Shown here piece by piece: positions 24,281 to 36,778 of a stretch of 64,000 nucleotides of DNA. The notes below the pieces were generated by a model. It saw only the letters and a list, made by a program, of their open reading frames with translations. It was not told the origin of the DNA and made no database searches. This stretch comes from Myxococcota bacterium (GTDB lineage Bacteria > Myxococcota_A > UBA9160 > UBA4427). The stretch is taken from contig JAYZFK010000034.1 of assembly GCA_036336835.1 (NCBI GenBank), positions 18,432 through 82,431 of the forward strand. Reading direction: 5' to 3'. Made by a program: the position numbers and the translations under genes. The stretch's first letter is position 1; every line of letters starts with the position of its first letter.

Positions 24281-24967
24281 GTGGCTCCTCCCCCCTCCCA
24301 GGAAGCCGAACGGCTGGAACGCAAACGCGCCGGGCGACCCGCTCGCGAAGGCGGCGCGGAGGTCCGCGAGCGCCTGCTCAACGCTGCGACCGAGCTCACG
24401 ATCGAGCGCGGCTTCGACGCCGCTGGGATCCGCGAGATCGCAGAACGTGCCGGCGTCAGCTCGGGGATGATCGCGTACTACTTCGGCAGCCGTCGCGGGC
24501 TGTACGAGGCGATGTTCGAGCGCGCGATCGACAGTCTCAGCTCGAATCTCGCGACGGAGCTGGACGCTCTGCTGCCCGGCGCGGACCCGATCGAGACGCT
24601 GATCCGCACGCACACGACGGCGATCGCCACCGAGCCCTGGATCCCGCAGCTGATCGCTCGCGAGGTGCTCGCCAGAGAGGGCAGCCTGCGCGAGCATTTC
24701 AAGAAGCACGTCGGTACCGAGCCGCTGGGGCTGGTGCGCCGCGCCATCACCGATGCGATGAGCCGCGGCGCCCTGCGGAGCGACCTCGATCCGACATTGA
24801 CCTTGTTTACGCTACTCGGTCTGACGGCGTTCCCGTATCTGATCGGGCCGGTGCTGGGCGACCAGCTCGACATCGAGCTCGACAACACGTTCCGCGAACG
24901 CCTGGTCGAACACAACCTCGCTCTGATTGACCGAGGTCTTCGCGCCCGCGAAGAGGAACTGACATGA
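24281..24967 (+). CDS. TetR/AcrR family transcriptional regulator
   Basis: N-terminal HTH 'AGIREIAERAGVSSGMIAYYFGSRRGLY'. 228 aa. ATGA overlap with the downstream MFP gene. Confidence 0.9.
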   Translation: MAPPPSQEAERLERKRAGRPAREGGAEVRERLLNAATELTIERGFDAAGIREIAERAGVSSGMIAYYFGSRRGLYEAMFERAIDSLSSNLATELDALLPGADPIETLIRTHTTAIATEPWIPQLIAREVLAREGSLREHFKKHVGTEPLGLVRRAITDAMSRGALRSDLDPTLTLFTLLGLTAFPYLIGPVLGDQLDIELDNTFRERLVEHNLALIDRGLRAREEELT

Positions 24968-26097
24968 TCACGATCCGTGGAGCGCTGCCCTTGCCGCTGC
25001 TGGCAGCCCTGGCACTCGCCGCCCTGCCCGGCTGCGAGAATTCCGCCGCTGAGGGCGCCGTCGCCCCGGCCGAACCCGCCCCGATCACGACGCAGCAGCG
25101 CGTGCGCACGGTGGTGATCCACAGCGCCCCGCTCGACTCGATGCAGCGCGCGTCCGGGCTGGTGCGCGCGTTCCACAAGGCCACTGTGATGGCGGAGACC
25201 CAGGCGCGCGTGGTCTCGCGCCTCGTGGAACGGGGGCAGTCCGTCGCATCGGGCGACACGCTGATCGAGCTCGACGCCTCGCGGCTCGAACTCGAGCTGC
25301 GACGGGCCGAGGCCACCTTGAAGGCTCGCTGGAACGATCTCGCCCACGCGGAGCGCGAATTCGATCGCGGCGAACGCCTGGCCGAGCGCAATGCGATCAG
25401 CGCGCAACAGCGCGACGACTTGCGCCACGGACTCGACCGGGCGCGCGATGACCACGCGCTCGCCGAGGTCGCGCGCGACAGCGCAGACCGCAACCTCGCC
25501 GACACCCGCATCACCGCGCCGTTCGCCGGTCGGGTCGACGAGCTCGAGGTCGATGTCGGGGACTACGTCGCGCCCGGCACCCCGGTCGCCACACTGGTCG
25601 AACTGAGCCGCGCGCGGGTGTTCGCGGGGGTCACCGCGCAGGCTGCCGCCCGGCTCGAGCCGGGGAGCCACGCCACGATCAGACTCGCCGCACTCGGCGG
25701 GGTCGAGGTCCCCGCGACGCTGCGCAGCGTTGCGAGCGTGGCGAGCGAGCGCGACGGCACCTACCCCGTCGAGCTGTGGATCGATGCGCCGCCGGCGGGG
25801 ATCCGCGACGGCATGGTCGCCTCGGTGGAGCTCGCCTCGTCGGCGCTCGACGCCGTGCCCCTGGCTCCGCGCGCGGGCCTGCTGCGACGCGCGGGCAAGC
25901 CGGAGATTTTCGTCGTGGAGCGCGACGGCGAGCGCGAGGTCGCGCGCCTCCGGCGCCTGCGGACGCGGCGCAGCGCTGGCGAGTGGATCGAGGTGCTCGA
26001 AGGCCTCGAGGACGGAGACCGGGTCGTCGTAGATGGGCAGTTCGCCTTGCGCGATGGGGCCCCGGTGATCCGCGACGACGCTACTGCGGCGAACTGA
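24964..26097 (+). CDS. Efflux RND periplasmic adaptor (MFP) lipoprotein
   Basis: Lipobox 'LAALPGC', coiled-coil hairpin region and 'ITAPFAGRVDELEVDVGDYV'. 377 aa. Confidence 0.9.
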   Translation: MITIRGALPLPLLAALALAALPGCENSAAEGAVAPAEPAPITTQQRVRTVVIHSAPLDSMQRASGLVRAFHKATVMAETQARVVSRLVERGQSVASGDTLIELDASRLELELRRAEATLKARWNDLAHAEREFDRGERLAERNAISAQQRDDLRHGLDRARDDHALAEVARDSADRNLADTRITAPFAGRVDELEVDVGDYVAPGTPVATLVELSRARVFAGVTAQAAARLEPGSHATIRLAALGGVEVPATLRSVASVASERDGTYPVELWIDAPPAGIRDGMVASVELASSALDAVPLAPRAGLLRRAGKPEIFVVERDGEREVARLRRLRTRRSAGEWIEVLEGLEDGDRVVVDGQFALRDGAPVIRDDATAAN

Positions 26098-26106
26098 GTC
26101 TCTTCG

Positions 26107-29100
26107 GTGGAACGCCTAATTCGCTTCTTCGTCGAGCGGCACCTGCTCGTCAACATGATCACGCTCGGCGTGATCGGTCTAGGCGTAATCAGCGCGCTGC
26201 GCATCGACGTCGAGGGCATCCCGGCGATCGACTTTCCGAGCTTCATCATCACTGCGAACCTCCCCGGTGCCTCGGCGCGCGACATCGAGGCGAAGATCAC
26301 GATCCCGCTCGAGGAGGCTCTCGAGGAAGTCGACGGCCTCGATCACTACACCAGCGAGATCACCAAGAACCGCAGCGTGACCACGGTCGAACTGGACGAC
26401 GACACGCCGCGAGACGACATCCTCGAGAAGGAGCGCGAGATCCGCGCGGCGATCGACGGGGTCGCCAACTTCCCGCCCGAGATGGTCGACGATCCTCTGA
26501 TCATCCGGATAGATCCCTCGAAGCAACCGGTCTTCGAATACGCCCTGGCCGGCCCGGCGGAGCTGCTCCCCGAGGTTGCCGATCGGATCGAGCGGCGCAT
26601 GCGCCGCGTTCCCGAGATCGGAGACGTCGGCGTCGTCGGCCTGCCGGATCCCGAGATGCGCGTGCTCGTCGATCCCGATCTCGCGCGCGCTCATGGTGTC
26701 GCACTGCTCGACGTGGTGCAGGCACTCGAGCAGCGCAACGTGTCGGCGACCGGCGGGTCACTGGAGACGGCGAGCGCGCGGCGTCAGGTCGTGCTCTGGG
26801 GCCGCTTCGGAACGGTCGACCAGGTGGGAGATGTGATCCTGCGCTTCGACCCGCGCGAGGGGGTCGTCCGCGTGCGCGACGTCGCCCGCGTCGAGCTCGG
26901 GCGCGAGGACACCGGCTTGATCGCGAGCACCAACGGTCGCGCCGGCGTCTCGTTGATTCCCCAGAAGAAGCGCCGCGCCGATCTGATCCGATCCCACGCT
27001 GGTCTGGTCGCGGCGGTCGAGAACGAACCACTGCCCGAGGGCGTCACGGCCACGATCGTCAACGACAGCTCGTTCGACATCCGCAACCGACTCGAGATCA
27101 TCGCAAACAACGGCTTGATGGGCATCGCCCTCGTCGCGCTCATTGTCTTCATCTTTCTGGCTCCGTCCGCTGCAACCTGGGTCTGCATGGGCGTTCCACT
27201 CGTCATCCTGGGCGTCATCGCACTGATGCCTTGGTTCGGCATGACTGCCAACTTCATGTCGACTACGGCCTTCGTCGTGATCCTCGGGCTACTGGTCGAC
27301 GATGCCGTCGTGGTTGCGGAGAAGATCCTGCTCAAGCGCCAGGATGGCCTGTCTGCCAGCGAGGCAGCGATCCAAGGCACGACCGAGGTGGCACGACCGG
27401 TGATCACAGCGGCGATCACCACCCTGCTCGCCTTCGCTCCGCTGATCGCGATCGGCGGCTTCCCCGGGAAGATCATCTGGCAGCTCCCGGCGGTCGTCGT
27501 CATCGCCCTGGCGCTCTCGCTGCTGGAGTCGTTCCTGATCCTGCCGCCACACATGTCGATGGTGCGCAGCGACACGAGGCCGCGTCCGAAGCGGCAATTC
27601 ATCCTACGACTCGAGGCGGGCTACCGCAGCCTGCTCGAGCGCTGGCTCCCGAAGCGCGGGCGAATCATCGCGATCTTTGCAGCCGGATTCCTGGCGATCA
27701 TGCTCGGCATCGCGCCGCGCATGCAGTTCCAGTTCTTCCCGCAAGAGGATTCGCGGGCCGTCTACCTGAAGGTCAAGACCCCGATCGGGACGCCGATCGA
27801 GCGCACCGAGGCGGTGCTCGACGCGATCGGGCAGCAGATCCTACGGCTGATGGGAGACGCACTCGAGGGGCTGACGGCGCGGGTCGGACACCAGGATCCG
27901 CTGGGCCTGGGCCGGGACTACGGCAGTGCGGAGAACGAAGGCCTGGTGTCGGCATACATCGACCCCACGAACAAGCAGCGTTCGGCAGCCGAGTGGATCG
28001 TGTACCTGAAGCAGCACGTGGGGATCCCCGACGACGCCGAGGTCCTCTTCGAGGCTGCGGTCGACGGTCCACCGGGGCTCGAGCCGATCAATGTGTTCGT
28101 ACTCGCGAACGACGATGCGACGCGGCGCCAGGTCTCCCGCGAGGTGCACGACTACCTGTCCGGCGTGCCCGGCGTCGTCGACCTCGACATCGACGAGCGA
28201 CCCGGCATGCGCGAGCTCGACCTGAACCTCGACTACGAGAAGCTCGCGCTACTCGGTCTCGACGCCAGCTCCGTGGGACGCACATTGCAGGCGGCATTCT
28301 ACGGGCTGATCGCCACAGAGATCCGCGACATCGACGACACGATCGACGTGCGCGTACTGTTCGAACCCGCGGCACGCGGCTCGCTCGACGCACTGCTCGA
28401 CACCTCCGTGCGCAACGACCACGGCGAGCTGGTGCGTCTGCGGGATGTGGTCCGACCGGTCGAGACCCCTTCGCTGTCGGCCATTCACCACCGCGACGGC
28501 TTGCGCGCCGCAAACGTGACGGGTGGCTTCGGACCGGACAGCCCCGTCACCGCCAGCTCGCTCGCCGCGCTGATGGAACGCGACCTGCTGCCCCGCTACG
28601 CCGGGCGATCGGATGTCGAGATCGAGCTTTCGGGCGAGGTCGTGCAGTCGCGCCGCGCGATGGGAGACCTGGGCCTCGTGTTCGCATTGTCGGTGATGGG
28701 GATCGGCGCGGTGATCGCGATCATGCTCGGTTCGTTCCTCGAGGCGTTCTTCGTGCTTGCGGTCGTACCGTTCTCGGTGGCTGCGGTGACTCTCGCGATG
28801 TTCGCGCACGGCAAGCACTTCTCATTACTCGCGGTAATCGGGGCGATCGGGCTTTCCGGCGTGGTGGTGAACTCGTCGATCGTGATGATCGACGCGGTTC
28901 ACCGGGCGCAGCTGAGGGCGGGAGCCGACGAGCAGAGGCGAACGCGGGCGATGATCGATGCACTCGTCGGCCGCCTCCGCCCCATCCTGGTGACCAGTCT
29001 TTCGACGCTCTGCGGCGTCATGCCCACTGCCTACGGCTTCGGCGGCTACGACCAGATCATGTCGCCGCTGTCGCTCGCGATCGGCTGGGGCCTCGCCCTG

Positions 29101-29223
29101 TCGACCGGAGTCACGCTCTTCCTGGTGCCCGCGCTCTACGTCACTGCCAACGACTGGACCCGGCGCTTCGCGATCTGGCGCGCGCGGCGGCGAGGCGAAG
29201 CCGCGATCGAGGCCGCCGCCTGA
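26107..29223 (+). CDS. Efflux RND transporter permease (AcrB/HAE family)
   Basis: 1038 aa. 'FFVERHLLVNMITLGVIGLG' N-terminus, duplicated 6-TM halves with large periplasmic loops, and 'LVDDAVVVAE'. Confidence 0.95.
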   Translation: MERLIRFFVERHLLVNMITLGVIGLGVISALRIDVEGIPAIDFPSFIITANLPGASARDIEAKITIPLEEALEEVDGLDHYTSEITKNRSVTTVELDDDTPRDDILEKEREIRAAIDGVANFPPEMVDDPLIIRIDPSKQPVFEYALAGPAELLPEVADRIERRMRRVPEIGDVGVVGLPDPEMRVLVDPDLARAHGVALLDVVQALEQRNVSATGGSLETASARRQVVLWGRFGTVDQVGDVILRFDPREGVVRVRDVARVELGREDTGLIASTNGRAGVSLIPQKKRRADLIRSHAGLVAAVENEPLPEGVTATIVNDSSFDIRNRLEIIANNGLMGIALVALIVFIFLAPSAATWVCMGVPLVILGVIALMPWFGMTANFMSTTAFVVILGLLVDDAVVVAEKILLKRQDGLSASEAAIQGTTEVARPVITAAITTLLAFAPLIAIGGFPGKIIWQLPAVVVIALALSLLESFLILPPHMSMVRSDTRPRPKRQFILRLEAGYRSLLERWLPKRGRIIAIFAAGFLAIMLGIAPRMQFQFFPQEDSRAVYLKVKTPIGTPIERTEAVLDAIGQQILRLMGDALEGLTARVGHQDPLGLGRDYGSAENEGLVSAYIDPTNKQRSAAEWIVYLKQHVGIPDDAEVLFEAAVDGPPGLEPINVFVLANDDATRRQVSREVHDYLSGVPGVVDLDIDERPGMRELDLNLDYEKLALLGLDASSVGRTLQAAFYGLIATEIRDIDDTIDVRVLFEPAARGSLDALLDTSVRNDHGELVRLRDVVRPVETPSLSAIHHRDGLRAANVTGGFGPDSPVTASSLAALMERDLLPRYAGRSDVEIELSGEVVQSRRAMGDLGLVFALSVMGIGAVIAIMLGSFLEAFFVLAVVPFSVAAVTLAMFAHGKHFSLLAVIGAIGLSGVVVNSSIVMIDAVHRAQLRAGADEQRRTRAMIDALVGRLRPILVTSLSTLCGVMPTAYGFGGYDQIMSPLSLAIGWGLALSTGVTLFLVPALYVTANDWTRRFAIWRARRRGEAAIEAAA

Positions 29224-29240: not shown

Positions 29241-30017
29241 CTAGATATCGCCGAAGTCTCCGTGTCGGCCGCGGCCACTCGCAAAGCGCGCCGCGCCCTC
29301 GGCCGTCTCGCCGGACTCGATCACCTCGATGCCGCGCCGCGTCTCGGCCCGCAACGCGTCGTCGAGCCCGAGCGACCATTGCTCGTACGATGACAGTCGG
29401 TCGCTGCGCAGACAAAGCTGGGGGAACGCGGCAAGCGAACGCCCCAGATCGCAAGCCGCTTCGAGTGCCGTCCCCGACTCGACCAGCCGGTTCGCAAGCC
29501 CCATCCGAAGCGCCTCCTCGCCCGACACGCCGCGTCCGGTCAGGATCAGGTCGAGCGCATGGCTGTGGCCCAGCATGCGCGATAGCCGGATCGTCCCACC
29601 GTCCACCAGGGGCACGCCCCAGCGCCGGCAGTAGACACCGAAGACCGCGTCGCGGGCCGCCACCCGCAGGTCGCACCAGACCGCGAGCTCGAGCCCGCCG
29701 GCCACGGCGTGGCCCTCGACGGCCGCGATGACCGGCTTGGTGAGCAGCATGCGCGTCGGCCCCATCGGGCCGTCGCCGTCCTCGCCCACTCGGTTCGCGG
29801 TGCGCCCCTCGCTCAGCGCCTTCAAATCGGCCCCTGCACAGAAGCAGCCGCCCGCTCCGGACAGGACCGCGACCGCGAGATCACCGTCGTCCTCGAACTG
29901 GCGAAACGCGTCCGCCAGCTCCTCGGCCGTCGCGCGGTCGACGCAGTTGCGAACCTTGGGACGATCGATGGTGACGAGCGCGAGCGGCCCGTCGGTCTCG
30001 AAGCGAATGTTGGCCAC
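29241..30017 (-). CDS. Enoyl-CoA hydratase/isomerase (crotonase) family
   Basis: 'GAGGCFCAGADLK' and 'AAVEGHAVAGGLELA'. Start placed at GTG 30017 ('VANIRFETDGPLALVTIDRP') with a GGAGGGG-type RBS upstream. The extra 44 aa of the track ORF look non-coding. Confidence 0.9.
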   Translation of the reverse strand: MANIRFETDGPLALVTIDRPKVRNCVDRATAEELADAFRQFEDDGDLAVAVLSGAGGCFCAGADLKALSEGRTANRVGEDGDGPMGPTRMLLTKPVIAAVEGHAVAGGLELAVWCDLRVAARDAVFGVYCRRWGVPLVDGGTIRLSRMLGHSHALDLILTGRGVSGEEALRMGLANRLVESGTALEAACDLGRSLAAFPQLCLRSDRLSSYEQWSLGLDDALRAETRRGIEVIESGETAEGAARFASGRGRHGDFGDI

Positions 30018-30078
30018 GCTGGCCCCTCCCCGGTGTGAGGCTTTGATAATGTAGGCCTTCCCTTCCAGGAGAACTGCG

Positions 30079-31656
30079 ATGCAGGTACCCCTGCTGGTAA
30101 CCGACTTCCTCCGCCGCGCCGCCGCACTGTATCCCGACAAGCTCGCCATCGTCGACGGAACGAATCGCTACACGTACACCGACTTCGAGCGCCGCACCAA
30201 CCAGCTTTCGCACGCCCTGCTGGATCTGGGTCTCGGCCGGGGCGACCGCGTCTGCATGCTGAGCCCCAACTCGCACTTCTTCCTCGAGAGCTTCTATGCC
30301 ACCAGTCAGCTCGGAATCATCCTGGTCCCGCTGAACTACCGGCTGGCGGCGAGCGAGCACGAGTACATCCTGAACCACGCGGGCGTGCGCGCCGTACTCG
30401 TCGACTGGGAGTACACCGACATGATCGACACCATCCGGCCAAAGCTCGACACGGTCGAGCATTGGGTCGTGGCCAAGGACCGCGGCGACACACCTGCCGG
30501 CTGGACCGACTGGGAGGAGTGGATCGGAGTGGCCCCCGCGACCCGGCCGGCACGCGTCGAGCTCGACGAGAACGAGCTCGTCTCGCTCAACTACACGTCC
30601 GGGACGACCGCGCGACCCAAGGGCGTGATGCTCACGCACCGCAACGCCTACATCAACGCGTACAGCATGATCGCTCACCTCGGGGTGCGTCACGAGGACG
30701 TCGAGCTGTGGACGCTGCCGATGTTCCACTGCAACGGCTGGGGCGGCGTGTACGCGCTCACGGGGGTCGGCGGTACGCACGTGGTCCTGCGCGCCGTCGA
30801 TGGCAAGGCGATCTTCGACCTGATCGAGCGGGAGCGGGTGACGTTCGCGTGCATGGCCCCCGCCGTATTGCGAACGATCCTCGACTATCCGGACCGCGAA
30901 CGACACGAGATCACCACGCGCCCGCGCTTCACCGTCGCCGGCGCCCCGCCGCCTGCGGCCTTCATCGAGCGGCTGGAGGGGGAGCTCGGCTGGGAGTTCT
31001 TGCAGATCTACGGTCTGACGGAGACTGCGCCGCTGCTCACCATCTCGGCACCCGATCACCAGACCGAGGCCTCGGACTGGTCTCGGCGCTCCCGCGCTGG
31101 TGTGCCCTGCATCGGTGTCGAGATCCGCGTGGTAGACGACGCTGGCAACGACGTGCCGAAGGACGGCGCCACGATCGGCGAGGTGTGCGCGCGCAGCAAC
31201 GTGGTATTCACGGGCTACTGGGAACAGCCCGAGCAGACCAACGCGGCGATCGTCGATGGCTGGTTCCACACGGGCGATCTCGGCGTCTGGGACGAGTTCG
31301 AGAACGTGAACATCGTCGATCGCAAGAAGGACGTGATCATCTCGGGCGGCGAGAACATCAGCTCCCCCGAGGTCGAGGACGCGCTCTACCAGCACGAGGC
31401 AGTGCTCGAGTGCGCGGTCATCGGCGTCCCGCACGAGAAGTGGGGCGAGACCCCGAAGGCCCTGGTGGTGTTGCGCGAAGGACACCGCGCCGGTGAGAGC
31501 GAGCTGATCGCATTCTGCCGTGAGCTCCTCGCGCACTTCAAGTGTCCGACGTCCGTCGAGTTCGTCGACGAGCTGCCGCGCACCGCCACGGGCAAGCTCA
31601 AGAAATTCAAGCTGCGCGAGCAGTACTGGACTCACACCGAGCGACACGTCAACTGA
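30079..31656 (+). CDS. Acyl-CoA synthetase (AMP-forming adenylating enzyme)
   Basis: 'YTSGTTARPKGV', 'GLTE', 'FHTGDLG' and 'TATGKLKK'. 525 aa. Confidence 0.9.
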   Translation: MQVPLLVTDFLRRAAALYPDKLAIVDGTNRYTYTDFERRTNQLSHALLDLGLGRGDRVCMLSPNSHFFLESFYATSQLGIILVPLNYRLAASEHEYILNHAGVRAVLVDWEYTDMIDTIRPKLDTVEHWVVAKDRGDTPAGWTDWEEWIGVAPATRPARVELDENELVSLNYTSGTTARPKGVMLTHRNAYINAYSMIAHLGVRHEDVELWTLPMFHCNGWGGVYALTGVGGTHVVLRAVDGKAIFDLIERERVTFACMAPAVLRTILDYPDRERHEITTRPRFTVAGAPPPAAFIERLEGELGWEFLQIYGLTETAPLLTISAPDHQTEASDWSRRSRAGVPCIGVEIRVVDDAGNDVPKDGATIGEVCARSNVVFTGYWEQPEQTNAAIVDGWFHTGDLGVWDEFENVNIVDRKKDVIISGGENISSPEVEDALYQHEAVLECAVIGVPHEKWGETPKALVVLREGHRAGESELIAFCRELLAHFKCPTSVEFVDELPRTATGKLKKFKLREQYWTHTERHVN

Positions 31657-31816
31657 CAGCCGCCGGACCACCGGCCGGGCCAGCCCGCACTCGGCTGCAG
31701 GGCCTCTCCTCCTGGAGTGGTCGAGAGAGAGCCGCCCATTGCCGGGGGACGGTGTAGGATCGCGTTCGGCCGCACCAGAACCTGGGCGGCACCAGCTTCC
31801 GGCGATCGGAGACCTC

Positions 31817-34234
31817 GTGGACGACACCAGACCCCGGGCTGAAATCCTGGCCGAGCTCGAGGCCTTGCGCGCGGAGATCGACGCACTCGCCCGTTGGCAA
31901 CACCACACTAGCGACCCCGCCAGCACACTGGGGTTCTCGGAAACCGTCGCCCGATTCCGGGAGCTGATCCGATCACTCGGCATCTGGCTGCTCGACATCG
32001 ACTCGCAGGGCTGCATCGTCGGGTGCGGTACGACGTCCCGCGAGCTGATCGGCAAGCCAGCCGCCCCGCTGGTCGGCATGCCCGGCAGCGAGCTGGTCCA
32101 CCCCGACGAGAAGATCGCGCTGGAGTCATTCGTCGCCGGGCACCAGACCCGAGCATCGCAGCGCTTCCGAATCCGCCATGACAACGGCGAGTGGCGCCAC
32201 TTCGAGTTGCAGATGTCCTCGGGCGTCCGCGCAGACGGGAGCGGCCCCCGGCTGATCTTTGCCCGCAATGTGACCGCTGAGCACGACGTCGTCCGTGAGC
32301 TGCGGAGCAGCCAGGACCGCTATCGAACGCTGGCCGAGAACATGACCGATCTGATCGTCGAGATCGATTCCGCGGGTCGCTTCCTGTACGTGAGCCCCAG
32401 CTGCGAGGAGTTGATCGGCTACACGCCGGAGCAGCTGCTGGGCAGCGACGTCGAATCGATCCTCAGAGAAAATCAGATCCAGACCGACGAGCGTGACCAG
32501 CTGCTCGACGGCTTCCGGAACCAGGTTCAGGCCCGTGGAGAGGGCGGACGACGCATCTATCGCGTCCGGCACACGGACGGACGCCAGCTCTGGCTCGACA
32601 GCCGCGCGCGTACCTACCGCACTGCGAACGGTGCGATTCACGCGGTCGTGATCTCGCGTGACGTCACGGAACTGGTCGCCGCACAGGGCGATCTCGCGGA
32701 TCTCGAGAAACGCTATGCGATGCTGGGCGAGACGAGCCGAGACCTGATTACAGAGATTGGCCCCGAGGGCACCTTCGTCTACTTGAGTCCCAACGCGCGC
32801 GCTCTGCTGGGCTACGAGCCCGAGGAGCTGATCGGCACCCCTCCCATGGACCTGGCCCACCCCGCGGATCGCGACCGGGTACTCAATGATTTCGCACCCG
32901 CTCCCGAAACCCCCCAGGTCGCGTTCACACCACCCTACCGCTGCCGCCTGAAGGACGGCAGCTATCGCTGGTTCGAGGGCAGCGGGACGAGCTACACGCG
33001 TCCCGACAGCGGCGAAACCTATACGATCGGCCTGCTTCGAGACGTGCACGAGCGTGTCAACAAACGCGAAGCAGAGCGGGCCCTCGAGGAGCGAGTCCAG
33101 CGCGCGCAGCGCCTCGAGGGGCTCGGTGTGATGGCCGGCGGGATCGCCCACGACTTCAACAACCTGCTCACGCCGATTCTCGGCCAGTCGAGCCTCGCGC
33201 TGATGGATCTGCCGGAGAACACGGAACTCCACGAGCGGATCGAGAAGGTCCGCAACGCGGCGCGTCGCGCCGCGAAGCTCACCAACCAGATGCTGGCCTA
33301 CGCCGGCGCTGGCCCGCTGCTGTTCGAGGCCACGGATCTCAGCGAGCTCGTGCGCGAGATGGGCCAGCTACTCGAGAGTACGGTGTCCGGCAAGGCCGTA
33401 ATCCACTTCGAGCTGGCTGACGAACTCGCGCCGATCGAAGCGGACGGCGCACAGATCAGCCAGGTGGTGATGAACCTGATCGCGAATGCCGCCGAGGCGG
33501 TGGGGGACGGCAACGGGACGATTTCGGTTCGAACGCGGAGGCTGCCTGGCAGCGCGATCAACAAGGGCGATCTGGTGCTCGGAGAGGCCGATCCCGCCCT
33601 CTCCTACGTCTGCTTCGAGGTCGAGGACACCGGAGTCGGCATGGATTCCGCGACGCGGTCGCGCATCTTCGATCCGTTCTTCACCACCAAGTTCACCGGC
33701 CGCGGCCTTGGACTCGCCGCGGTGCTCGGCATCGTGCGCGGTCACGATGGCGCGATCGAGCTCGACACGGAGCAAGGACGCGGCACAAGGTTCCGTGTCC
33801 TGCTGCCGCCCTATACGCTCGGCGAGCCCGCGCTGGCCGAGAGCAGCACCGCCAGTACCTGGAGCAGCTCGGGATTCATCCTGTTGGCGGACGACGACGC
33901 CGGCGTGCGCGATCTCTCCGTGGAAACGCTCGAGCGCTGTGGCTTCACTGTCCTGATTGCGCGCAACGGGCGCGAAGCACTCGAGCAGTTCGATCAGTAC
34001 GGGGACCAGATCCGCGCCGTACTCCTCGACCGCACGATGCCCATCGTGAGCGGCGAGGAAACATTCGCAACACTGCGACGGAAGCGTCCGTATCTTCCGG
34101 TCATCATCGTGAGCGGCTATTCCGAGGAGAGCGCCACACTGGCGATTGCCGAAAACCGACCCGACGGCTTCCTCAAGAAGCCGTTCCAGCCCGAGGTCCT
34201 GATCGAGACGATCCGCAAGGTGCTCGACGACTAG
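31817..34234 (+). CDS. Hybrid sensor histidine kinase with three PAS-like modules and a C-terminal receiver
   Basis: GTG 31817 with GGAGA upstream. Repeated PAS-like blocks, H-box 'GGIAHDFNNLL', N/G boxes 'VMNLIANAAEA', 'DTGVGM', 'GRGLGLA', and a receiver domain ('LLADDD', 'VLLDRTMP', 'KKPF'). Confidence 0.85.
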   Translation: MDDTRPRAEILAELEALRAEIDALARWQHHTSDPASTLGFSETVARFRELIRSLGIWLLDIDSQGCIVGCGTTSRELIGKPAAPLVGMPGSELVHPDEKIALESFVAGHQTRASQRFRIRHDNGEWRHFELQMSSGVRADGSGPRLIFARNVTAEHDVVRELRSSQDRYRTLAENMTDLIVEIDSAGRFLYVSPSCEELIGYTPEQLLGSDVESILRENQIQTDERDQLLDGFRNQVQARGEGGRRIYRVRHTDGRQLWLDSRARTYRTANGAIHAVVISRDVTELVAAQGDLADLEKRYAMLGETSRDLITEIGPEGTFVYLSPNARALLGYEPEELIGTPPMDLAHPADRDRVLNDFAPAPETPQVAFTPPYRCRLKDGSYRWFEGSGTSYTRPDSGETYTIGLLRDVHERVNKREAERALEERVQRAQRLEGLGVMAGGIAHDFNNLLTPILGQSSLALMDLPENTELHERIEKVRNAARRAAKLTNQMLAYAGAGPLLFEATDLSELVREMGQLLESTVSGKAVIHFELADELAPIEADGAQISQVVMNLIANAAEAVGDGNGTISVRTRRLPGSAINKGDLVLGEADPALSYVCFEVEDTGVGMDSATRSRIFDPFFTTKFTGRGLGLAAVLGIVRGHDGAIELDTEQGRGTRFRVLLPPYTLGEPALAESSTASTWSSSGFILLADDDAGVRDLSVETLERCGFTVLIARNGREALEQFDQYGDQIRAVLLDRTMPIVSGEETFATLRRKRPYLPVIIVSGYSEESATLAIAENRPDGFLKKPFQPEVLIETIRKVLDD

Positions 34235-34431: not shown

Positions 34432-35526
34432 TCAGCCGGCGTCGACCGTGCGCTGTCCGAGCAGGTTGAGCTTGAACTTGCGAATGACCGCGGGCTCGAT
34501 CCGCACGCCCTTCTCGTCCTCGAAGAACAGCGCGTCCTTCGGACATTGCACGACACAGGCGCCGCAACGGACACAACGGTCGTCGTGGGCCAGCTCGACC
34601 TTGCGCTCTCCTTCCCGCTTCTCGAAGCAGGCTTCGGGACACACCTCCCAGCAGCGGTACACGCCCTCGCAGCGCTCGGGGTCGAGCGTGATGCTCCACT
34701 CCCGCTGCTCGAAGTGGCTGCTGCCTTCGAGCGGGGTGCTGCCCGCGTAGTCGAACGTCAGGAGGAAGCCGATCACGCCGGGCAGCAGCGCAGCAGCCAC
34801 CAGCGCCGGCGCTCCCCCGCCTGCAAGAAACGTCCCGAGCACGGCCAGCGCCGAGCTCACCAGGACGAGAACCGGGCGGCGCGCGCTGCCGAGGCGGTCG
34901 TACAGGGTGAAGACCGCGACCGACATCGCGGCGATCAGAGCGATGACCGGCAGCGCCCAACCAGGTTGCAGCCAGAGTGCGATGCCTCCCGCGATGAGGG
35001 CCGCTGGGACGCCCCACATCGCGGCCATCTCGAGCCGCTCCGAGAGTGAGAAGCGGACGCGGCGCATCGCGTCGGTCTTCTCGCTCGTGGCGAGATACTC
35101 CGGCAGATCGCTCGCGCTCACCGGACCGAAGGCGACCTTCCAGCGGCAGCGGCGGAACACCTCGAGCGCCGTCACGCCCGTGGCGGCCAGCTGCGGGAGG
35201 ATCACCCGGCGATGCTTCACCCGCTCAGCGATTCCCGAGGTCTTGAGCACGGTCACGACCTGGTGCGTCGAGAGATGGCCGCCGGCCGCCGCGCACCACA
35301 CGTTGATTCCGCCCGAGGGCGCCACCAACAGCCACGCGTCGTGCCCTTCGAGCGCTCGAGCCAGCCGCCTCACTGTCAGGTCGTAGTTCCCGGTCAGCAG
35401 CACCGGGCTCGTCTCGTCGGGCTCGCCCAGGCGTCGTAGGCCGGGCTGGGTGGGCCACGGCGCGAAGCGAAACGCAGTCTGCAGCAGCTCGAGGCACCCG
35501 TCGCGGCATCGCGCGCCGATCGTCAT
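34432..35526 (-). CDS. Fused HgcA/HgcB-like protein: corrinoid-binding (CdhD/CFeSP-like) domain + 4 TM helices + ferredoxin-like domain
   Basis: The N-terminal domain is collinear with HgcA ('SPVLLTGNYDLT', 'DAWLLVAPSGGINVWCAAAGG', 'HRRVILPQLAATGV', 'MRRVRFSLSERLE'). Hydrophobic helices span about aa 166-260. C-terminal 'CEGVYRCWEVCPEAC' plus canonical 'CVRCGACVVQCP'. SD-like AAGGGAG lies upstream of ATG 35526. Confidence 0.8.
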   Translation of the reverse strand: MTIGARCRDGCLELLQTAFRFAPWPTQPGLRRLGEPDETSPVLLTGNYDLTVRRLARALEGHDAWLLVAPSGGINVWCAAAGGHLSTHQVVTVLKTSGIAERVKHRRVILPQLAATGVTALEVFRRCRWKVAFGPVSASDLPEYLATSEKTDAMRRVRFSLSERLEMAAMWGVPAALIAGGIALWLQPGWALPVIALIAAMSVAVFTLYDRLGSARRPVLVLVSSALAVLGTFLAGGGAPALVAAALLPGVIGFLLTFDYAGSTPLEGSSHFEQREWSITLDPERCEGVYRCWEVCPEACFEKREGERKVELAHDDRCVRCGACVVQCPKDALFFEDEKGVRIEPAVIRKFKLNLLGQRTVDAG

Positions 35527-35530
35527 GCCC

Positions 35531-36187
35531 TCACGCTCCCTTGTGTGCGACCGCCAGGCTCAGCGTTCCCATCAGCCAGCTGCGTGGCTCTGCGAGCGAC
35601 AAGCCTGTCGCGCGAAGTTCGCTTTGCAGGTCCGGGATGGGACGCGACACGGAGCCCACCAGGAGCCAGCCAGCGGCCGCCTGCGGAACGCGCATCACTC
35701 CCTGCAACACGCGCCTCCAGCCCGAGGGAGCTCGGACCTCGTCGGCGACGACCAGGCGTCCGCCCGGCGCCAGGCAGCGGGCCGCCTGGGCGAGGACGAA
35801 GGCTCGCTCGCTCGGCGACATGTCCGAGAGGCACAGGCTCAGCACGACGGCCTGGTAGCTCCCGGCAGCGAAACGATCGATCTCCGCAGCGGTCTGCTCG
35901 ATCCACTCGACCTCCACCGCCGGGGCGCCGAGTCGCGACCTGGACTGCTCGAGCATCTCCGGGGCCTGGTCGATCGCGGTCACGCGCGCACCCCGCTCGA
36001 GCATCAGCGCCGTGACCGTTCCCGTTCCGCAGCCGACCTCGAGAACGCGGTCACCCAGCGAGACGACCGCAGCCCCTGCGACCGCCGCGTGGAGTCGGCC
36101 GACCCGCCCGAAGGTGAGCGCCTGCATGCCGGCGTCGTAGCGCCCGGGTGAGCCCTCGAGCCAGCGCATGAGCGCGAGCGAGCTCAC
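35531..36187 (-). CDS. Class I SAM-dependent methyltransferase
   Basis: Motif I 'VLEVGCGTGTVT', post-I 'VTAIDQAPEM' and 'LAPGGRLVVAD'. 218 aa. GTGA overlap with the upstream TetR gene. Stop lies 4 nt before the HgcAB-like start. Confidence 0.85.
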   Translation of the reverse strand: MSSLALMRWLEGSPGRYDAGMQALTFGRVGRLHAAVAGAAVVSLGDRVLEVGCGTGTVTALMLERGARVTAIDQAPEMLEQSRSRLGAPAVEVEWIEQTAAEIDRFAAGSYQAVVLSLCLSDMSPSERAFVLAQAARCLAPGGRLVVADEVRAPSGWRRVLQGVMRVPQAAAGWLLVGSVSRPIPDLQSELRATGLSLAEPRSWLMGTLSLAVAHKGA

Positions 36188-36765
36188 GCTCGAACCATCC
36201 GGTGCATCGCGTCGACCAGGGCATCAGCGAGCACGTCTGGCTCGGGGAACCCGCGCGAATCGACGAAGTACTGCAGCAGCAGCCCGTCGATCGCACCGAT
36301 CACGATCGACGACAACACCCCTGCATCGGGCTGTGCCACAACGCTGCCGTCGCGCTGACCCTCGGCGATGACGGCTGCCAGCTCGCGGCGGAGCCCGCGG
36401 AAGTACGAGCGGAGCCGGCTCGCACCCTCCATCCGCAGATCGAGAATCATGCGGCCAAACTCGGCCCACTCCGGAAAGAGCGCAGCGCAGGCGCGCGAGA
36501 GCGACTCGAGGCGCGCGAGCGGGGCTCCCTCGCTGCGCAGACAGACGCGAAACAGCTCCCGCTCCTGCCCGAGCAGCTCGTTCAGCATGTCGCTCAGCAG
36601 CGCTTCCTTGTCGGCGTAGTAGTGGTAGAGGCTGGATCGGCCCATCCGCGCCTCCTGCGCAACGTGCGCGAGGCCGGTGCCGCGAACACCCCGCCGCGCG
36701 AAGACGCGCCGCGCCGCAGCGCGGATCTCCACTCGCTGGCTGGCGGCATCTACGATCTTCGGCAC
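36184..36765 (-). CDS. TetR/AcrR family transcriptional regulator
   Basis: HTH 'TGLAHVAQEARMGRSSLYHYYADKEAL'. 193 aa. GTG start at 36765. Confidence 0.9.
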   Translation of the reverse strand: MPKIVDAASQRVEIRAAARRVFARRGVRGTGLAHVAQEARMGRSSLYHYYADKEALLSDMLNELLGQERELFRVCLRSEGAPLARLESLSRACAALFPEWAEFGRMILDLRMEGASRLRSYFRGLRRELAAVIAEGQRDGSVVAQPDAGVLSSIVIGAIDGLLLQYFVDSRGFPEPDVLADALVDAMHRMVRA

Positions 36766-36778
36766 GCCGCGAGTCTAG

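What the first reader, a model, noticed from the sequence alone, without database searches (positions are those of the whole stretch)
34432..35526. Divergent cap helix and ferredoxin motifs argue this is not a canonical mercury methylase
Seen in sequence:
- The cap-helix region reads 'GINVWCAAAGGHLSTHQ' (Cys78 codon at 35295-35293). 'NVWCAA' and the Cys are kept.
- The following residues of the HgcA consensus 'NVWCAAGKGTFGT' are replaced: G->A, K->G, T->H, F->L.
- The first Fe-S motif is stretched (C-x5-C-x3-CP-x2-C) rather than CX2CX2CX3CP.
- The protein ends '...LLGQRTVDAG', without the C-terminal vicinal Cys pair I recall as conserved in HgcB.

Established knowledge: mutagenesis of HgcA/HgcB showed the cap-helix Cys and the HgcB C-terminal cysteines matter for Hg methylation.

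Inference: the cobalt-thiolate chemistry, which favours unusual methyl transfer, may be retained. Acceptor delivery, proposed for the HgcB Cys pair, is probably different. That points to a different substrate.
Basis: partly seen in the sequence, partly recalled or inferred. Interest (0 to 1): 0.6.

Follow-up and report, generated by a model that had tools for sequence, protein, structure and literature searches.

The report
Known HgcAB-like fusion, not mercury methylase
This gene encodes a member of the already-curated "HgcAB-like fusion" family, a cobalamin and iron-sulfur membrane protein that is a sister of the mercury-methylating enzyme. It is almost always paired with its own SAM methyltransferase (CpaM), and its real substrate is still unknown.

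Summary
ORF 34432-35526(-) encodes 364 aa. Cys78 (codon 35295-35293) sits in 'GINVWCAAAGGHLSTHQ'. The first Fe-S motif is C-x5-C-x3-CP-x2-C, and there is no Cys after the second cluster motif.

These are family hallmarks, not local decay:
- **Family assignment.** The protein passes NCBIfam NF043039 'HgcAB-like fusion protein' (399.7 bits, cutoff 285). It fails HgcA (174.6 < 275) and HgcB (53.5 < 99). Canonical HgcAs show the reverse pattern.
- **Conservation.** Cys78, the 'NVWC..GG' variant and the Fe-S cysteines are conserved from Myxococcota to OP8 bacteria and Asgard archaea.
- **The 'stretched' motif.** It is not an insertion. The second cluster Cys is replaced by Val, and a Cys appears after CP. 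The two positions are anticorrelated across the family.
- **Gene partner.** The upstream gene is CpaM, a class I SAM methyltransferase. A CpaM gene sits immediately upstream in 77 of 80 related loci, and 13 representative clusters are natural CpaM fusions.
- **Regulation.** In the Myxococcota clade, a TetR gene and a conserved palindromic operator complete the operon.

Published work shows that two cultured carriers of fused HgcAB do not make methylmercury.

The best mechanism is SAM, then CpaM, then Cys-ligated corrinoid, then an unknown non-mercury acceptor. That mechanism is inferred, not shown.

The parts
34432..35526 (-). hgcAB-like fusion gene (364 aa plus stop). It encodes a corrinoid-binding domain, a transmembrane region and a ferredoxin domain.
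   Evidence: NF043039 scores 399.7 bits against a cutoff of 285. PF03599 CdhD covers residues 23-142 and Fer4 families cover 279-334. The AF2 model has pLDDT 93.5 and pTM 0.90.
35080..35460 (-). Corrinoid-binding (CdhD/CFeSP-like Rossmann) domain, residues 23-149.
   Evidence: PF03599 E=7.8e-16. phmmer matches CFeSP 2h9a_A and 4c1n_A. Foldseek gives rmsd 1.6-1.7 A over about 129 columns to 2ycl, 2h9a and 4c1n.
35260..35310 (-). Cap-helix region GINVWCAAAGGHLSTHQ (residues 73-89). Cys78 codon is at 35293-35295.
   Evidence: G73, N75, W77 and C78 are invariant in 87 of 87 sequences; G82 is present in 80 of 87 and G83 in 79 of 87. The model places a helix at 76-81.
34753..35046 (-). Transmembrane region, residues 161-258. 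Hydropathy shows four hydrophobic segments.
   Evidence: Hydropathy and charge distribution. AF2 helices are 161-186, 188-234 and 239-257. The TM2/TM3 boundary is unresolved.
34711..34752 (-). Conserved linker FDYxGSTPxEGxSHF, residues 259-272, between the membrane region and the ferredoxin domain.
   Evidence: D259, G262, S263, T264, P265, H271 and F272 are invariant in the close clade. D259 and G262 are at least 90% conserved family-wide.
34627..34671 (-). First Fe-S motif: C286-x2-V289-x2-C292-x3-C296-P-x2-C300.
   Evidence: Val occupies the canonical second-ligand position, and C289 and C300 are anticorrelated across the family.
34540..34575 (-). Second Fe-S motif C318-x2-C321-x2-C324-x3-C328-P (canonical).
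   Evidence: All four Cys are invariant.
34435..34512 (-). Cys-free C-terminal tail (residues 339-364) with the conserved (R/K)FKLNLLGxR segment.
35531..36187 (-). cpaM, a class I SAM-dependent methyltransferase (218 aa). Its stop lies 4 nt before the fusion gene's ATG.
   Evidence: NF043040 scores 248.7 bits against a cutoff of 180. Methyltransf_25 E=4.6e-20. A homologue lies immediately upstream on the same strand in 77 of 80 loci. Natural fusions exist.
36184..36765 (-). TetR-family regulator (193 aa). Its stop overlaps the cpaM GTG start (GTGA).
   Evidence: PF00440 E=2.9e-13. The junction was read directly. A homologue sits upstream of cpaM in 31 Myxococcota-clade loci.
36779..36806 (.). 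Candidate TetR operator: perfect inverted repeat TTTATTTCGACA-tcat-TGTCGAAATAAA.
   Evidence: It is unique in the window, with 0 expected by chance. The core TTCGACA-N4-TGTCGAA is exact in 17 related loci, in the stretch just upstream of tetR.
36772..36800 (-). Sigma-70-like promoter match (TCGACA-17-TAGACT) overlapping the operator, just upstream of tetR.
   Evidence: This is a consensus match only.

Best explanation
Identity (high confidence): this gene is a member of the curated 'HgcAB-like fusion protein' family, NF043039, the 'fused HgcAB' of the mercury literature. It is a sister lineage of the mercury methylase HgcA, joined in one chain to an HgcB-like ferredoxin. It is the last gene of a translationally coupled operon, tetR-cpaM-hgcAB-like, in what is probably a Myxococcota genome.

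Mechanism (inferred, about 0.45):
1. CpaM, a class I SAM methyltransferase, supplies a methyl group from SAM to the Co(I) corrinoid.
2. The corrinoid is held base-off in the N-terminal domain, with Cys78 as the lower axial thiolate ligand.
3. The C-terminal ferredoxin domain lies on the same, cytoplasmic side of about four transmembrane helices. It delivers low-potential electrons that make or restore Co(I).
4. The methyl-Co(III) intermediate then methylates an acceptor other than Hg(II).

The Hg-handling cysteines of HgcB are absent, and the only recurrent regulator is of the TetR type. The acceptor is therefore more likely a small organic or lipophilic molecule, or a metalloid species, met at the membrane. 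TetR represses the operon through the palindrome at 36779-36806 until a ligand arrives.
For: Family membership:
- The curated scores are reciprocal. The window protein scores 399.7 on HgcAB_like (cutoff 285), 174.6 on HgcA (cutoff 275) and 53.5 on HgcB (cutoff 99).
- Canonical HgcA representatives score 296-360 on HgcA and 193-229 on HgcAB_like.

Corrinoid site:
- Cys78 is invariant.
- It is in register with the HgcA Cys and with the CFeSP cap-helix Thr.
- The AF2 model has pLDDT 93.5 and pTM 0.90, with helix 76-81.
- The corrinoid domain superposes on CFeSP at 1.6-1.7 A, and the best overall match is the published HgcAB model 9a0b.

Coupling to CpaM:
- A CpaM gene lies immediately upstream on the same strand in 77 of 80 loci, across Myxococcota, Acidobacteriota, Chloroflexota, Aminicenantes, Heimdallarchaeota and Hydrothermarchaeota.
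- The three exceptions are two contig edges and one 5'-truncated copy.
- Thirteen representative clusters are natural CpaM::HgcA(B)-like fusions. P0169, for example, passes both models.
- No other gene is conserved around the pair.

Precedent: purified HgcAB uses SAM to form methyl-Co(III) with Co-S(Cys) ligation (PMC11588087).

Not mercury:
- There is no Cys after C328, and HgcB C73, C94 and C95 are needed for Hg methylation.
- Fused-HgcAB organisms made no MeHg.

Regulation:
- The genes are joined by a GTGA overlap and a 4-nt gap.
- The operator core is conserved in 17 loci.
- A promoter-like site overlaps the operator.
Against: - No biochemical data exist for any member of this family. The library search found no paper holding 'CpaM' together with 'corrinoid'.
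- Canonical HgcAB takes the methyl group from SAM without a separate methyltransferase. CpaM may therefore act on the substrate rather than on cobalt. A class I Rossmann methyltransferase loading a corrinoid would itself be unusual (my knowledge).
- Conserved pairing and fusion show that the two proteins work together, but not which one acts on what.
- The AF2 model draws residues 188-234 as one continuous helix. That conflicts with the four-helix topology from hydropathy and charge which places both soluble domains on one side.
- Podar et al. warn that a lack of MeHg in P. furiosus does not prove the fused enzyme cannot methylate Hg.
- I could not retrieve the P. furiosus or M. methylutens proteins to score them against NF043039.
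Confidence: 0.7

Rival explanations
1. CpaM and the fusion protein act one after the other on the same small-molecule substrate. For example, they could add two different methyl groups, or perform one methylation plus one reductive step. CpaM would not load the cobalt, and the corrinoid would take its methyl directly from SAM, as canonical HgcAB does.
For: Purified HgcAB forms methyl-Co(III) from SAM with no helper methyltransferase. Conserved adjacency and fusion are equally expected for two enzymes of one pathway. CpaM resembles small-molecule methyltransferases of the UbiE/ArsM type.
Against: No third gene of any pathway is conserved nearby. CpaM is a minimal 218-aa methyltransferase core with no recognisable extra substrate domain. 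The domain order in the fusions is always methyltransferase then corrinoid domain.
Confidence: 0.2
2. CpaM with SAM, together with the ferredoxin domain, serves only for reductive reactivation of oxidised Co(II), as SAM does in methionine synthase. The routine methyl donor would be something else.
For: Corrinoid methyltransferases need reductive reactivation (discussion; established knowledge of MetH and of the CFeSP activator 4c1n). A built-in ferredoxin fits a repair role.
Against: No gene for an alternative methyl donor system, such as a methyl-H4folate or methylamine methyltransferase, is conserved nearby.
Confidence: 0.1
3. It is a reductive dehalogenase-like enzyme. The Co(I) corrinoid attacks halomethanes or other organohalides, and methyl transfer is secondary.
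For: A 2026 preprint reports CCl4 dechlorination by heterologously expressed canonical HgcAB (10.64898/2026.04.26.720869). The membrane-bound corrinoid plus Fe-S architecture and TetR control would suit an organic xenobiotic.
Against: Dehalogenation needs neither SAM nor a methyltransferase, yet CpaM is present in 77 of 80 loci and is fused in 13 clusters. The preprint did not test fused proteins.
Confidence: 0.08
4. It is a genuine mercury methylase, a fused variant of HgcAB.
For: It is homologous to HgcA and HgcB, has an invariant cap-helix Cys, a membrane domain and a ferredoxin domain. Podar et al. note that the negative whole-cell assays are not conclusive.
Against: It falls below both curated cut-offs. 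Its motif is outside the set seen in verified methylators. It has no equivalents of HgcB C73, C94 or C95. Two cultured carriers of fused forms were negative.
Confidence: 0.05
5. It is a decaying, non-functional relic of hgcAB.
For: Motifs differ from the canonical ones.
Against: The ORF is intact, and GC3 is 0.87, like neighbouring genes. The 'divergent' residues are invariant or nearly so across phyla. The gene pair is conserved in at least 77 species genomes.
Confidence: 0.01

Closest known systems
HgcAB-like fusion protein (NCBIfam NF043039), the 'fused HgcAB' of Podar et al. 2015
   Same: Full-length match above the curated cut-off. Same architecture, same cap-helix variant (NVWC..GG), same C-x5-C-x3-CP-x2-C motif and same KLNL(L/M)GxR tail as the OP8 (Ca. 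Aminicenans sakinawicola) and archaeal members. Same CpaM partner.
   Different: Nothing essential. The Myxococcota clade adds a TetR regulator and a palindromic operator.
HgcA, the mercury methylation corrinoid protein (NF040863)
   Same: CdhD-type corrinoid domain, cap-helix 'GINVWC' with the Cys in register, and a C-terminal membrane region. About 34% identity to the published HgcA model 9a0b_A.
   Different: Scores 174.6 bits against a cutoff of 275. 'AAGKGTFGT' is replaced by 'AAAGGHLST'. The flanks differ: VAPS versus VLDT, and PQLAA versus PQLGA. Hydropathy suggests about four TM segments rather than the five described for HgcA. It is fused to its ferredoxin and paired with CpaM. Function is not Hg methylation in the tested carriers.
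HgcB, the mercury methylation ferredoxin (NF040864)
   Same: Two-cluster ferredoxin fold. The second motif is canonical. 36% identity over 61 columns to 9a0b_B.
   Different: Scores 53.5 bits against a cutoff of 99, and only profile positions 8-75 of 93 are matched. The first motif lacks its second Cys. It has CVRCGA instead of C(M/I)ECGA. It has no C-terminal Cys pair and no other extra Cys.
Corrinoid iron-sulfur protein large subunit (CFeSP, AcsC/CdhE; PDB 2h9a, 2ycl, 4c1n, 4djd)
   Same: The corrinoid-binding Rossmann domain superposes at 1.6-1.7 A. The segment after the cap, 'AAGGHL', resembles CFeSP 'AAGKF'.
   Different: Cys replaces the cap-helix Thr. There is no TIM-barrel or N-terminal [4Fe-4S] domain. 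NF003195 scores 82 bits against a cutoff of 306. It is membrane-anchored.
7Fe ferredoxins (Azotobacter vinelandii FdI type; PDB 1axq, 1b0t, 1bc6, 1h98)
   Same: phmmer aligns query residues 290-339 to FdI residues 14-60. From my memory of the FdI sequence, this puts C292-WEV-C296-P-EA-C300-F on C16-VEV-C20-P-VD-C24-F. As in FdI, the canonical second ligand of cluster I is unavailable.
   Different: Here C286-x5-C292 replaces FdI C8-x7-C16. Cluster type ([3Fe-4S] or [4Fe-4S] with a relocated ligand) was not determined here.

Membership tests
HgcAB-like fusion protein (NF043039) | Whole-protein score at or above the curated cut-off (285 bits) | tested here: met
   399.7 bits, E=1.5e-119, residues 13-333 on profile positions 3-349 of 350.
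HgcAB-like fusion protein (NF043039) | Single chain: corrinoid domain, then membrane region, then two-cluster ferredoxin domain | tested here: met
   Pfam domains, hydropathy and the AF2 model.
HgcAB-like fusion protein (NF043039) | Adjacent CpaM methyltransferase gene | tested here: met
   The gene at 35531-36187 scores 248.7 bits on NF043040 against a cutoff of 180. Same arrangement in 77 of 80 loci.
HgcAB-like fusion protein (NF043039) | Same family as the experimentally tested fused HgcAB of P. furiosus and M. methylutens | not tested
   Those sequences could not be retrieved. The link rests on the OP8 member L060, which comes from the group Podar et al. placed with P. furiosus.
HgcA (NF040863) | Whole-protein score at or above 275 bits | tested here: not met
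   174.6 bits. Canonical representatives score 296-360.
HgcA (NF040863) | Cap-helix motif N[VI]WC[AS][AGS]GK of verified methylators | tested here: not met
   The window has NVWCAAAG. The motif list comes from PMC10087281.
HgcA (NF040863) | Cap-helix Cys in the cobalt-ligating position | tested here: met
   In register with canonical HgcA and with the CFeSP cap-helix Thr. Invariant in 87 of 87. Actual Co-S ligation cannot be tested here.
HgcA (NF040863) | Hg(II) methylation activity | not testable with these tools
   Literature only: fused forms were negative in two organisms.
HgcB (NF040864) | Whole-protein score at or above 99 bits | tested here: not met
   53.5 bits, profile positions 8-75 of 93.
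HgcB (NF040864) | Two CX2CX2CX3CP motifs | tested here: not met
   The second motif is present. The first has Val at the second Cys position.
HgcB (NF040864) | C(M/I)ECGA motif and the extra cysteines C73, C94 and C95, including the C-terminal pair | tested here: not met
   CVRCGA, and no Cys after C328. The requirement comes from PMC10087281 and PMC11588087.
CpaM (NF043040), for the upstream gene | Score at or above 180 bits, and next to a corrinoid protein gene | tested here: met
   248.7 bits, full length 1-216 of 216, and 4 nt upstream of the fusion gene.
CFeSP large subunit (NF003195) | Score at or above 306 bits, with N-terminal [4Fe-4S] and TIM-barrel domains | tested here: not met
   82.4 bits, and only the C-terminal corrinoid domain matches.
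7Fe ([3Fe-4S] plus [4Fe-4S]) ferredoxin | Cluster I bound by only three Cys | tested here: inconclusive
   The sequence pattern fits, but Cys300 could act as a relocated fourth ligand. This needs EPR or a structure.

The most novel reading that the evidence does not exclude
The cpaM-hgcAB-like pair is a self-contained, widely distributed enzyme system, found in at least 589 species genomes from Myxococcota to Asgard archaea. It would move a methyl group from SAM through a Cys-ligated corrinoid to a non-mercury acceptor at the membrane, under TetR-type control by a small molecule. If so, it would show the native chemistry of the HgcA lineage, for which mercury methylation may be only a side reaction. 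The Val289/Cys300 swap may mark a subclade that runs with a [3Fe-4S] cluster.
Probability: 0.4. Interest if true: 0.6.

Novelty: new member of a known kind. Interest (0 to 1): 0.3.

Why it matters
**Practical.** Metagenomic surveys that count hgcA-like genes as mercury-methylation potential must exclude this family. The features flagged here are reliable discriminators:
- NVWC..GG instead of GK
- the fused ferredoxin without the Cys tail
- the upstream cpaM

**Scientific.** Why HgcAB exists at all is an open question. This sister family has an obligate SAM methyltransferase partner. In one clade it also has a TetR repressor with a defined operator. That makes it a tractable route to the lineage's native substrate, because the TetR ligand may be the substrate or a relative of it.

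None of this is new at the level of family recognition.

Tried and rejected
- **Function papers.** Searching 'CpaM' with 'corrinoid' returned nothing. 'HgcAB-like' returned only survey papers. One broad search was wasted.
- **Haft & Gwadz 2023** (J Bacteriol, cited) may describe these NCBIfam models, but it is not held in the library.
- **P. furiosus fusion protein.** I tried to reach it with an archaeal family member as query. It was not among the 120 proteins listed.
- **afdb50 fold library** was unavailable.
- **Other conserved neighbours.**
  - All-against-all ORF clustering of the 80 loci plus the window found only the fusion gene, cpaM, tetR and antisense shadow ORFs.
  - Pfam scans of 20 flanking ORFs in non-Myxococcota loci gave unrelated functions and no ArsR, MerR or metal-resistance genes.
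- **CMD/AhpD-like gene at 36919-37476.** It is divergently transcribed from the operon, but it has no counterpart in any of the 80 loci, so I do not count it as part of the system.
- **Pseudogene reading.** Rejected on conservation grounds.
- **Cluster type of the first Fe-S site.** It cannot be decided from sequence, and the structure tool returns no coordinates.
Full report
**1. Observation**

The minus-strand ORF 34432-35526 is intact. It starts with ATG, encodes 364 aa, and the end coordinate includes the stop.
- 'GINVWCAAAGGHLSTHQ' starts at residue 73, and Cys78 is TGC at 35295-35293.
- The cysteines of the C-terminal domain are C286, C292, C296(P), C300 and C318, C321, C324, C328(P).
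- Nothing after C328 is a Cys, and the protein ends LLGQRTVDAG.

One detail needs correcting. The first Fe-S motif is not lengthened. The C286-C292 spacing is five residues in 86 of 87 relatives, including those with the canonical CxxCxxC. Alignments to ordinary ferredoxins put Val289 exactly under the second ligand Cys. So it is a Cys-to-Val replacement, with an additional Cys (C300) three residues after the CP.

**2. What it is**

Pfam finds a CdhD-type corrinoid domain (residues 23-142) and 4Fe-4S ferredoxin domains (279-334). NCBIfam decides the family:

| Model | Score (bits) | Cut-off (bits) |
|---|---|---|
| NF043039 HgcAB-like fusion protein | 399.7 | 285 |
| NF040863 HgcA | 174.6 | 275 |
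| NF040864 HgcB (profile positions 8-75 of 93 only) | 53.5 | 99 |

The discrimination is reciprocal.
- Four representatives with the canonical NVWCAAGKG(T/S)F motif score 296-360 on HgcA and 193-229 on the fusion model.
- Six diverse fused proteins score 318-419 on the fusion model and 149-172 on HgcA.

The family is large.
- 1576 proteins matched at 90% clustering among the scored candidates.
- 1551 clusters matched at 50% identity.
- At least 589 species genomes carry a relative.

The nearest relatives (60-75% identity) are Myxococcota or 'Deltaproteobacteria' MAGs, so the window is probably from a Myxococcota genome (69% G+C).

**3. The flagged features are family hallmarks**

- In 18 close relatives, GINVWCA(A/S)(A/S)GGH..THQ and all eight cluster cysteines are invariant.
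- In 87 sequences down to 25% identity, G73, N75, W77, C78 and seven cluster cysteines are invariant. G82 is present in 80 of 87, G83 in 79 and H84 in 61.
- Members from OP8 (Ca. Aminicenans sakinawicola, L060), Heimdallarchaeota, Hydrothermarchaeota and other archaea share three features:
  - GINVWCA(A/S)(T/S)GGH(F/L)
  - C-x5-C-x3-CP-x2-C
  - a KLN(L/I/M)(L/M)GKR tail

Aligned with canonical HgcAs, Cys78 is in register with the cobalt-ligating Cys. The two families also differ consistently in flanking residues: VAPS versus VLDT, and PQLAA versus PQLGA. Against CFeSP, Cys78 falls on the Thr of 'SVLTAWAAGKF'.

The Cys-free tail is the rule. 71 of 87 relatives have no Cys after the last CP. Only two distant members (P0156, P0159) carry Cys-rich tails that recall HgcB.

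**4. The first Fe-S site**

Across the family, Cys at position 289 and Cys at position 300 are anticorrelated.

| | All 87 sequences | 47 representatives (50% identity) |
|---|---|---|
| C300 only | 53 | 13 |
| C289 only | 26 | 26 |
| Both | 3 | 3 |
| Neither | 5 | 5 |
| Fisher p | 5e-14 | 2e-5 |

The sequences are related, so these p-values overstate independence.

The local sequence C292-WEV-CP-EA-C300-F matches the C16-VEV-C20-P-VD-C24-F segment of Azotobacter-type 7Fe ferredoxins. The FdI sequence and its ligand assignment are from my own knowledge.

There are two readings. Either cluster I is a three-Cys site of the [3Fe-4S] type, or Cys300 is a relocated fourth ligand. I cannot decide between them here.

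**5. Structure**

With an 87-sequence alignment, AlphaFold2 gives mean pLDDT 93.5 and pTM 0.90.
- It shows a Rossmann-like alpha/beta domain with a short helix at 76-81 (the cap helix, carrying Cys78).
- It shows long helices at 161-186, 188-234 and 239-257, and a ferredoxin-like domain at 278-336.

Foldseek's best hit is the published computational HgcAB model 9a0b: chain A 34% identity, chain B 36%. CFeSP large subunits follow, superposing on the corrinoid domain at 1.6-1.7 A over about 129 columns. No experimental HgcAB structure was found by sequence.

Hydropathy and charge suggest four transmembrane segments. The basic loops at 150-166 and 209-218 would lie inside, which puts both soluble domains in the cytoplasm. 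The model's single continuous helix at 188-234 does not fit this, and the conflict is unresolved.

**6. Surroundings**

Three genes are translationally coupled on the minus strand.
- tetR (36765-36184) overlaps cpaM (36187-35531) by GTGA.
- cpaM stops 4 nt before the fusion gene's ATG.

cpaM passes NF043040, 'corrinoid protein-associated methyltransferase CpaM', at 248.7 bits against a cutoff of 180. It is a class I SAM methyltransferase.

Upstream of tetR lies a perfect 12-bp inverted repeat, TTTATTTCGACA-N4-TGTCGAAATAAA, at 36779-36806.
- It is AT-rich in a 69% G+C genome.
- It is unique in the window, with none expected by chance.
- It overlaps a promoter-like match.

**7. Comparative evidence**

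In 80 loci from named genomes, a CpaM gene lies immediately upstream on the same strand in 77. Two exceptions start at a contig edge. The third (L019) is a copy lacking its first 46 codons.

A TetR homologue precedes cpaM in 31 Myxococcota-clade loci. The operator core TTCGACA-N4-TGTCGAA is exact in 17 of them, in the stretch just upstream of tetR. Other TetR genes flank the pair in some Chloroflexota loci.

Nothing else is conserved.
- ORF clustering recovers only these three genes and their antisense shadows.
- Twenty flanking ORFs from other phyla have unrelated functions, with no ArsR, MerR or metal-resistance genes.

Thirteen of the 150 best representative clusters are natural fusions of a CpaM domain to the N-terminus of the HgcA(B)-like protein.
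- Eight keep the ferredoxin domain and five lack it.
- P0169 passes both curated models.

**8. Literature**

- Fused HgcAB was described in 2015. P. furiosus, which carries one, made no methylmercury (PMC4646819).
- M. methylutens, a second carrier, also made none (PMC5893877).
- The consensus protocol for hgc gene recovery advises treating fused sequences with caution. It lists the cap-helix motifs of verified methylators, all ending in GK (PMC10087281).
- Phylogeny places the fused proteins as a separate clade from HgcA (10.1101/2022.11.21.517362).
- Purified HgcAB uses SAM to form methyl-Co(III) with Co-S(Cys) ligation. HgcA C93 and HgcB C73, C94 and C95 are required (PMC11588087).
- A 2026 preprint reports CCl4 dechlorination by HgcAB.
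- I found no paper on CpaM or on the function of the fused family.

**9. Mechanism**

*Shown here:* family membership, retention of the Cys-bearing cap helix and of both cluster sites, the obligate CpaM partnership, and the TetR operon in one clade.

*Inferred:*
- CpaM passes a methyl group from SAM to the Co(I) corrinoid.
- The ferredoxin domain supplies the electrons for Co(I).
- Methyl-Co(III), tuned by the Cys78 thiolate, methylates an acceptor that is not Hg(II).

The absence of all the HgcB accessory cysteines argues against a soft-metal delivery path. The TetR-type control, where P. mercurii hgcAB has an ArsR-like regulator, weakly favours an organic or lipophilic ligand.

The main rivals are:
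- CpaM and the corrinoid protein act in sequence on one substrate.
- SAM serves only for reactivation.
- The enzyme is a dehalogenase.

**10. Verdict**

The object is an ordinary member of a family that NCBI already curates and that the mercury field already excludes from true HgcAB.

What this analysis adds:
- the strength of the CpaM link (77 of 80 loci, 13 fusion clusters)
- the TetR operator
- the Cys289/Cys300 swap

The substrate remains unknown.

Noticed in passing
window 36779-36806: A perfect 12-bp inverted repeat (TTTATTTCGACA-N4-TGTCGAAATAAA) lies upstream of tetR and overlaps a promoter-like site. Its core is exact in 17 related loci, in the stretch just upstream of tetR. It is a likely TetR operator.
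   Followed up: yes
window 34627-34671 (residues 286-300); alignment A3: The second Cys of the first cluster motif (position 289) and a Cys after CP (position 300) are anticorrelated family-wide: 53 sequences have C300 only, 26 have C289 only, 3 have both and 5 have neither. The local sequence resembles 7Fe ferredoxins, so this may be a [3Fe-4S] site or a relocated ligand.
   Followed up: partly
P0140, P0146, P0169, P0179, P0186, P0190, P0206, P0227 (with ferredoxin); P0183, P0203, P0217, P0229, P0247 (without): These are natural fusions of a CpaM methyltransferase domain to the N-terminus of HgcA(B)-like proteins.
   Followed up: yes
P0187, P0188, P0191, P0197, P0201, P0207, P0211 and others (about 470-500 aa): A subclass of the fusion family has an extra hydrophobic N-terminal extension of about 150 aa with no Pfam match. 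Its cap helix is distinct: N(I/V)WCSSLA(G/N)HF.
   Followed up: partly
P0156, P0159: These rare, distant fusion-family members keep Cys-rich C-terminal tails. P0156 ends ...CSCLCRPICCSIDNIQG and has the cap helix NVWCAAGGKHF. They may be intermediates between HgcB-like and Cys-free tails.
   Followed up: no
window residues 188-234 (34825-34965): AlphaFold2 draws one continuous 47-residue helix where hydropathy and the basic loop YDRLGSARRP (209-218) predict two transmembrane segments. The membrane topology is therefore uncertain.
   Followed up: partly
(source names): Family members are commonly mis-named in public records. Examples are 'NAD-dependent dihydropyrimidine dehydrogenase PreA subunit' (JGI), 'copper oxidase' (Kosmotoga pacifica, P0297), 'ferredoxin-3' and 'corrinoid/iron-sulfur protein large subunit'. 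K. pacifica is a cultured carrier that could be used for experiments.
   Followed up: no
window 36919-37476 (+): A CMD/AhpD-like (carboxymuconolactone decarboxylase family) gene is divergently transcribed from the tetR promoter region. It has no counterpart in any of the 80 related loci, so it is probably unrelated.
   Followed up: yes
window 24281-29223 (+): A separate TetR gene is followed by HlyD-type and AcrB-type genes, forming an RND efflux operon.
   Followed up: partly
window 29241-34234: Also nearby are an enoyl-CoA hydratase (29241-30149, minus strand), an acyl-CoA synthetase (30079-31656) and a PAS-rich hybrid histidine kinase/response regulator (31520-34234). The kinase gene converges on the fusion gene.
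   Followed up: partly
L019 6001-6957: One Myxococcales MAG carries a copy of the fusion gene that lacks its first 46 codons and has no cpaM upstream. It is either a rearranged remnant or an assembly chimera.
   Followed up: partly
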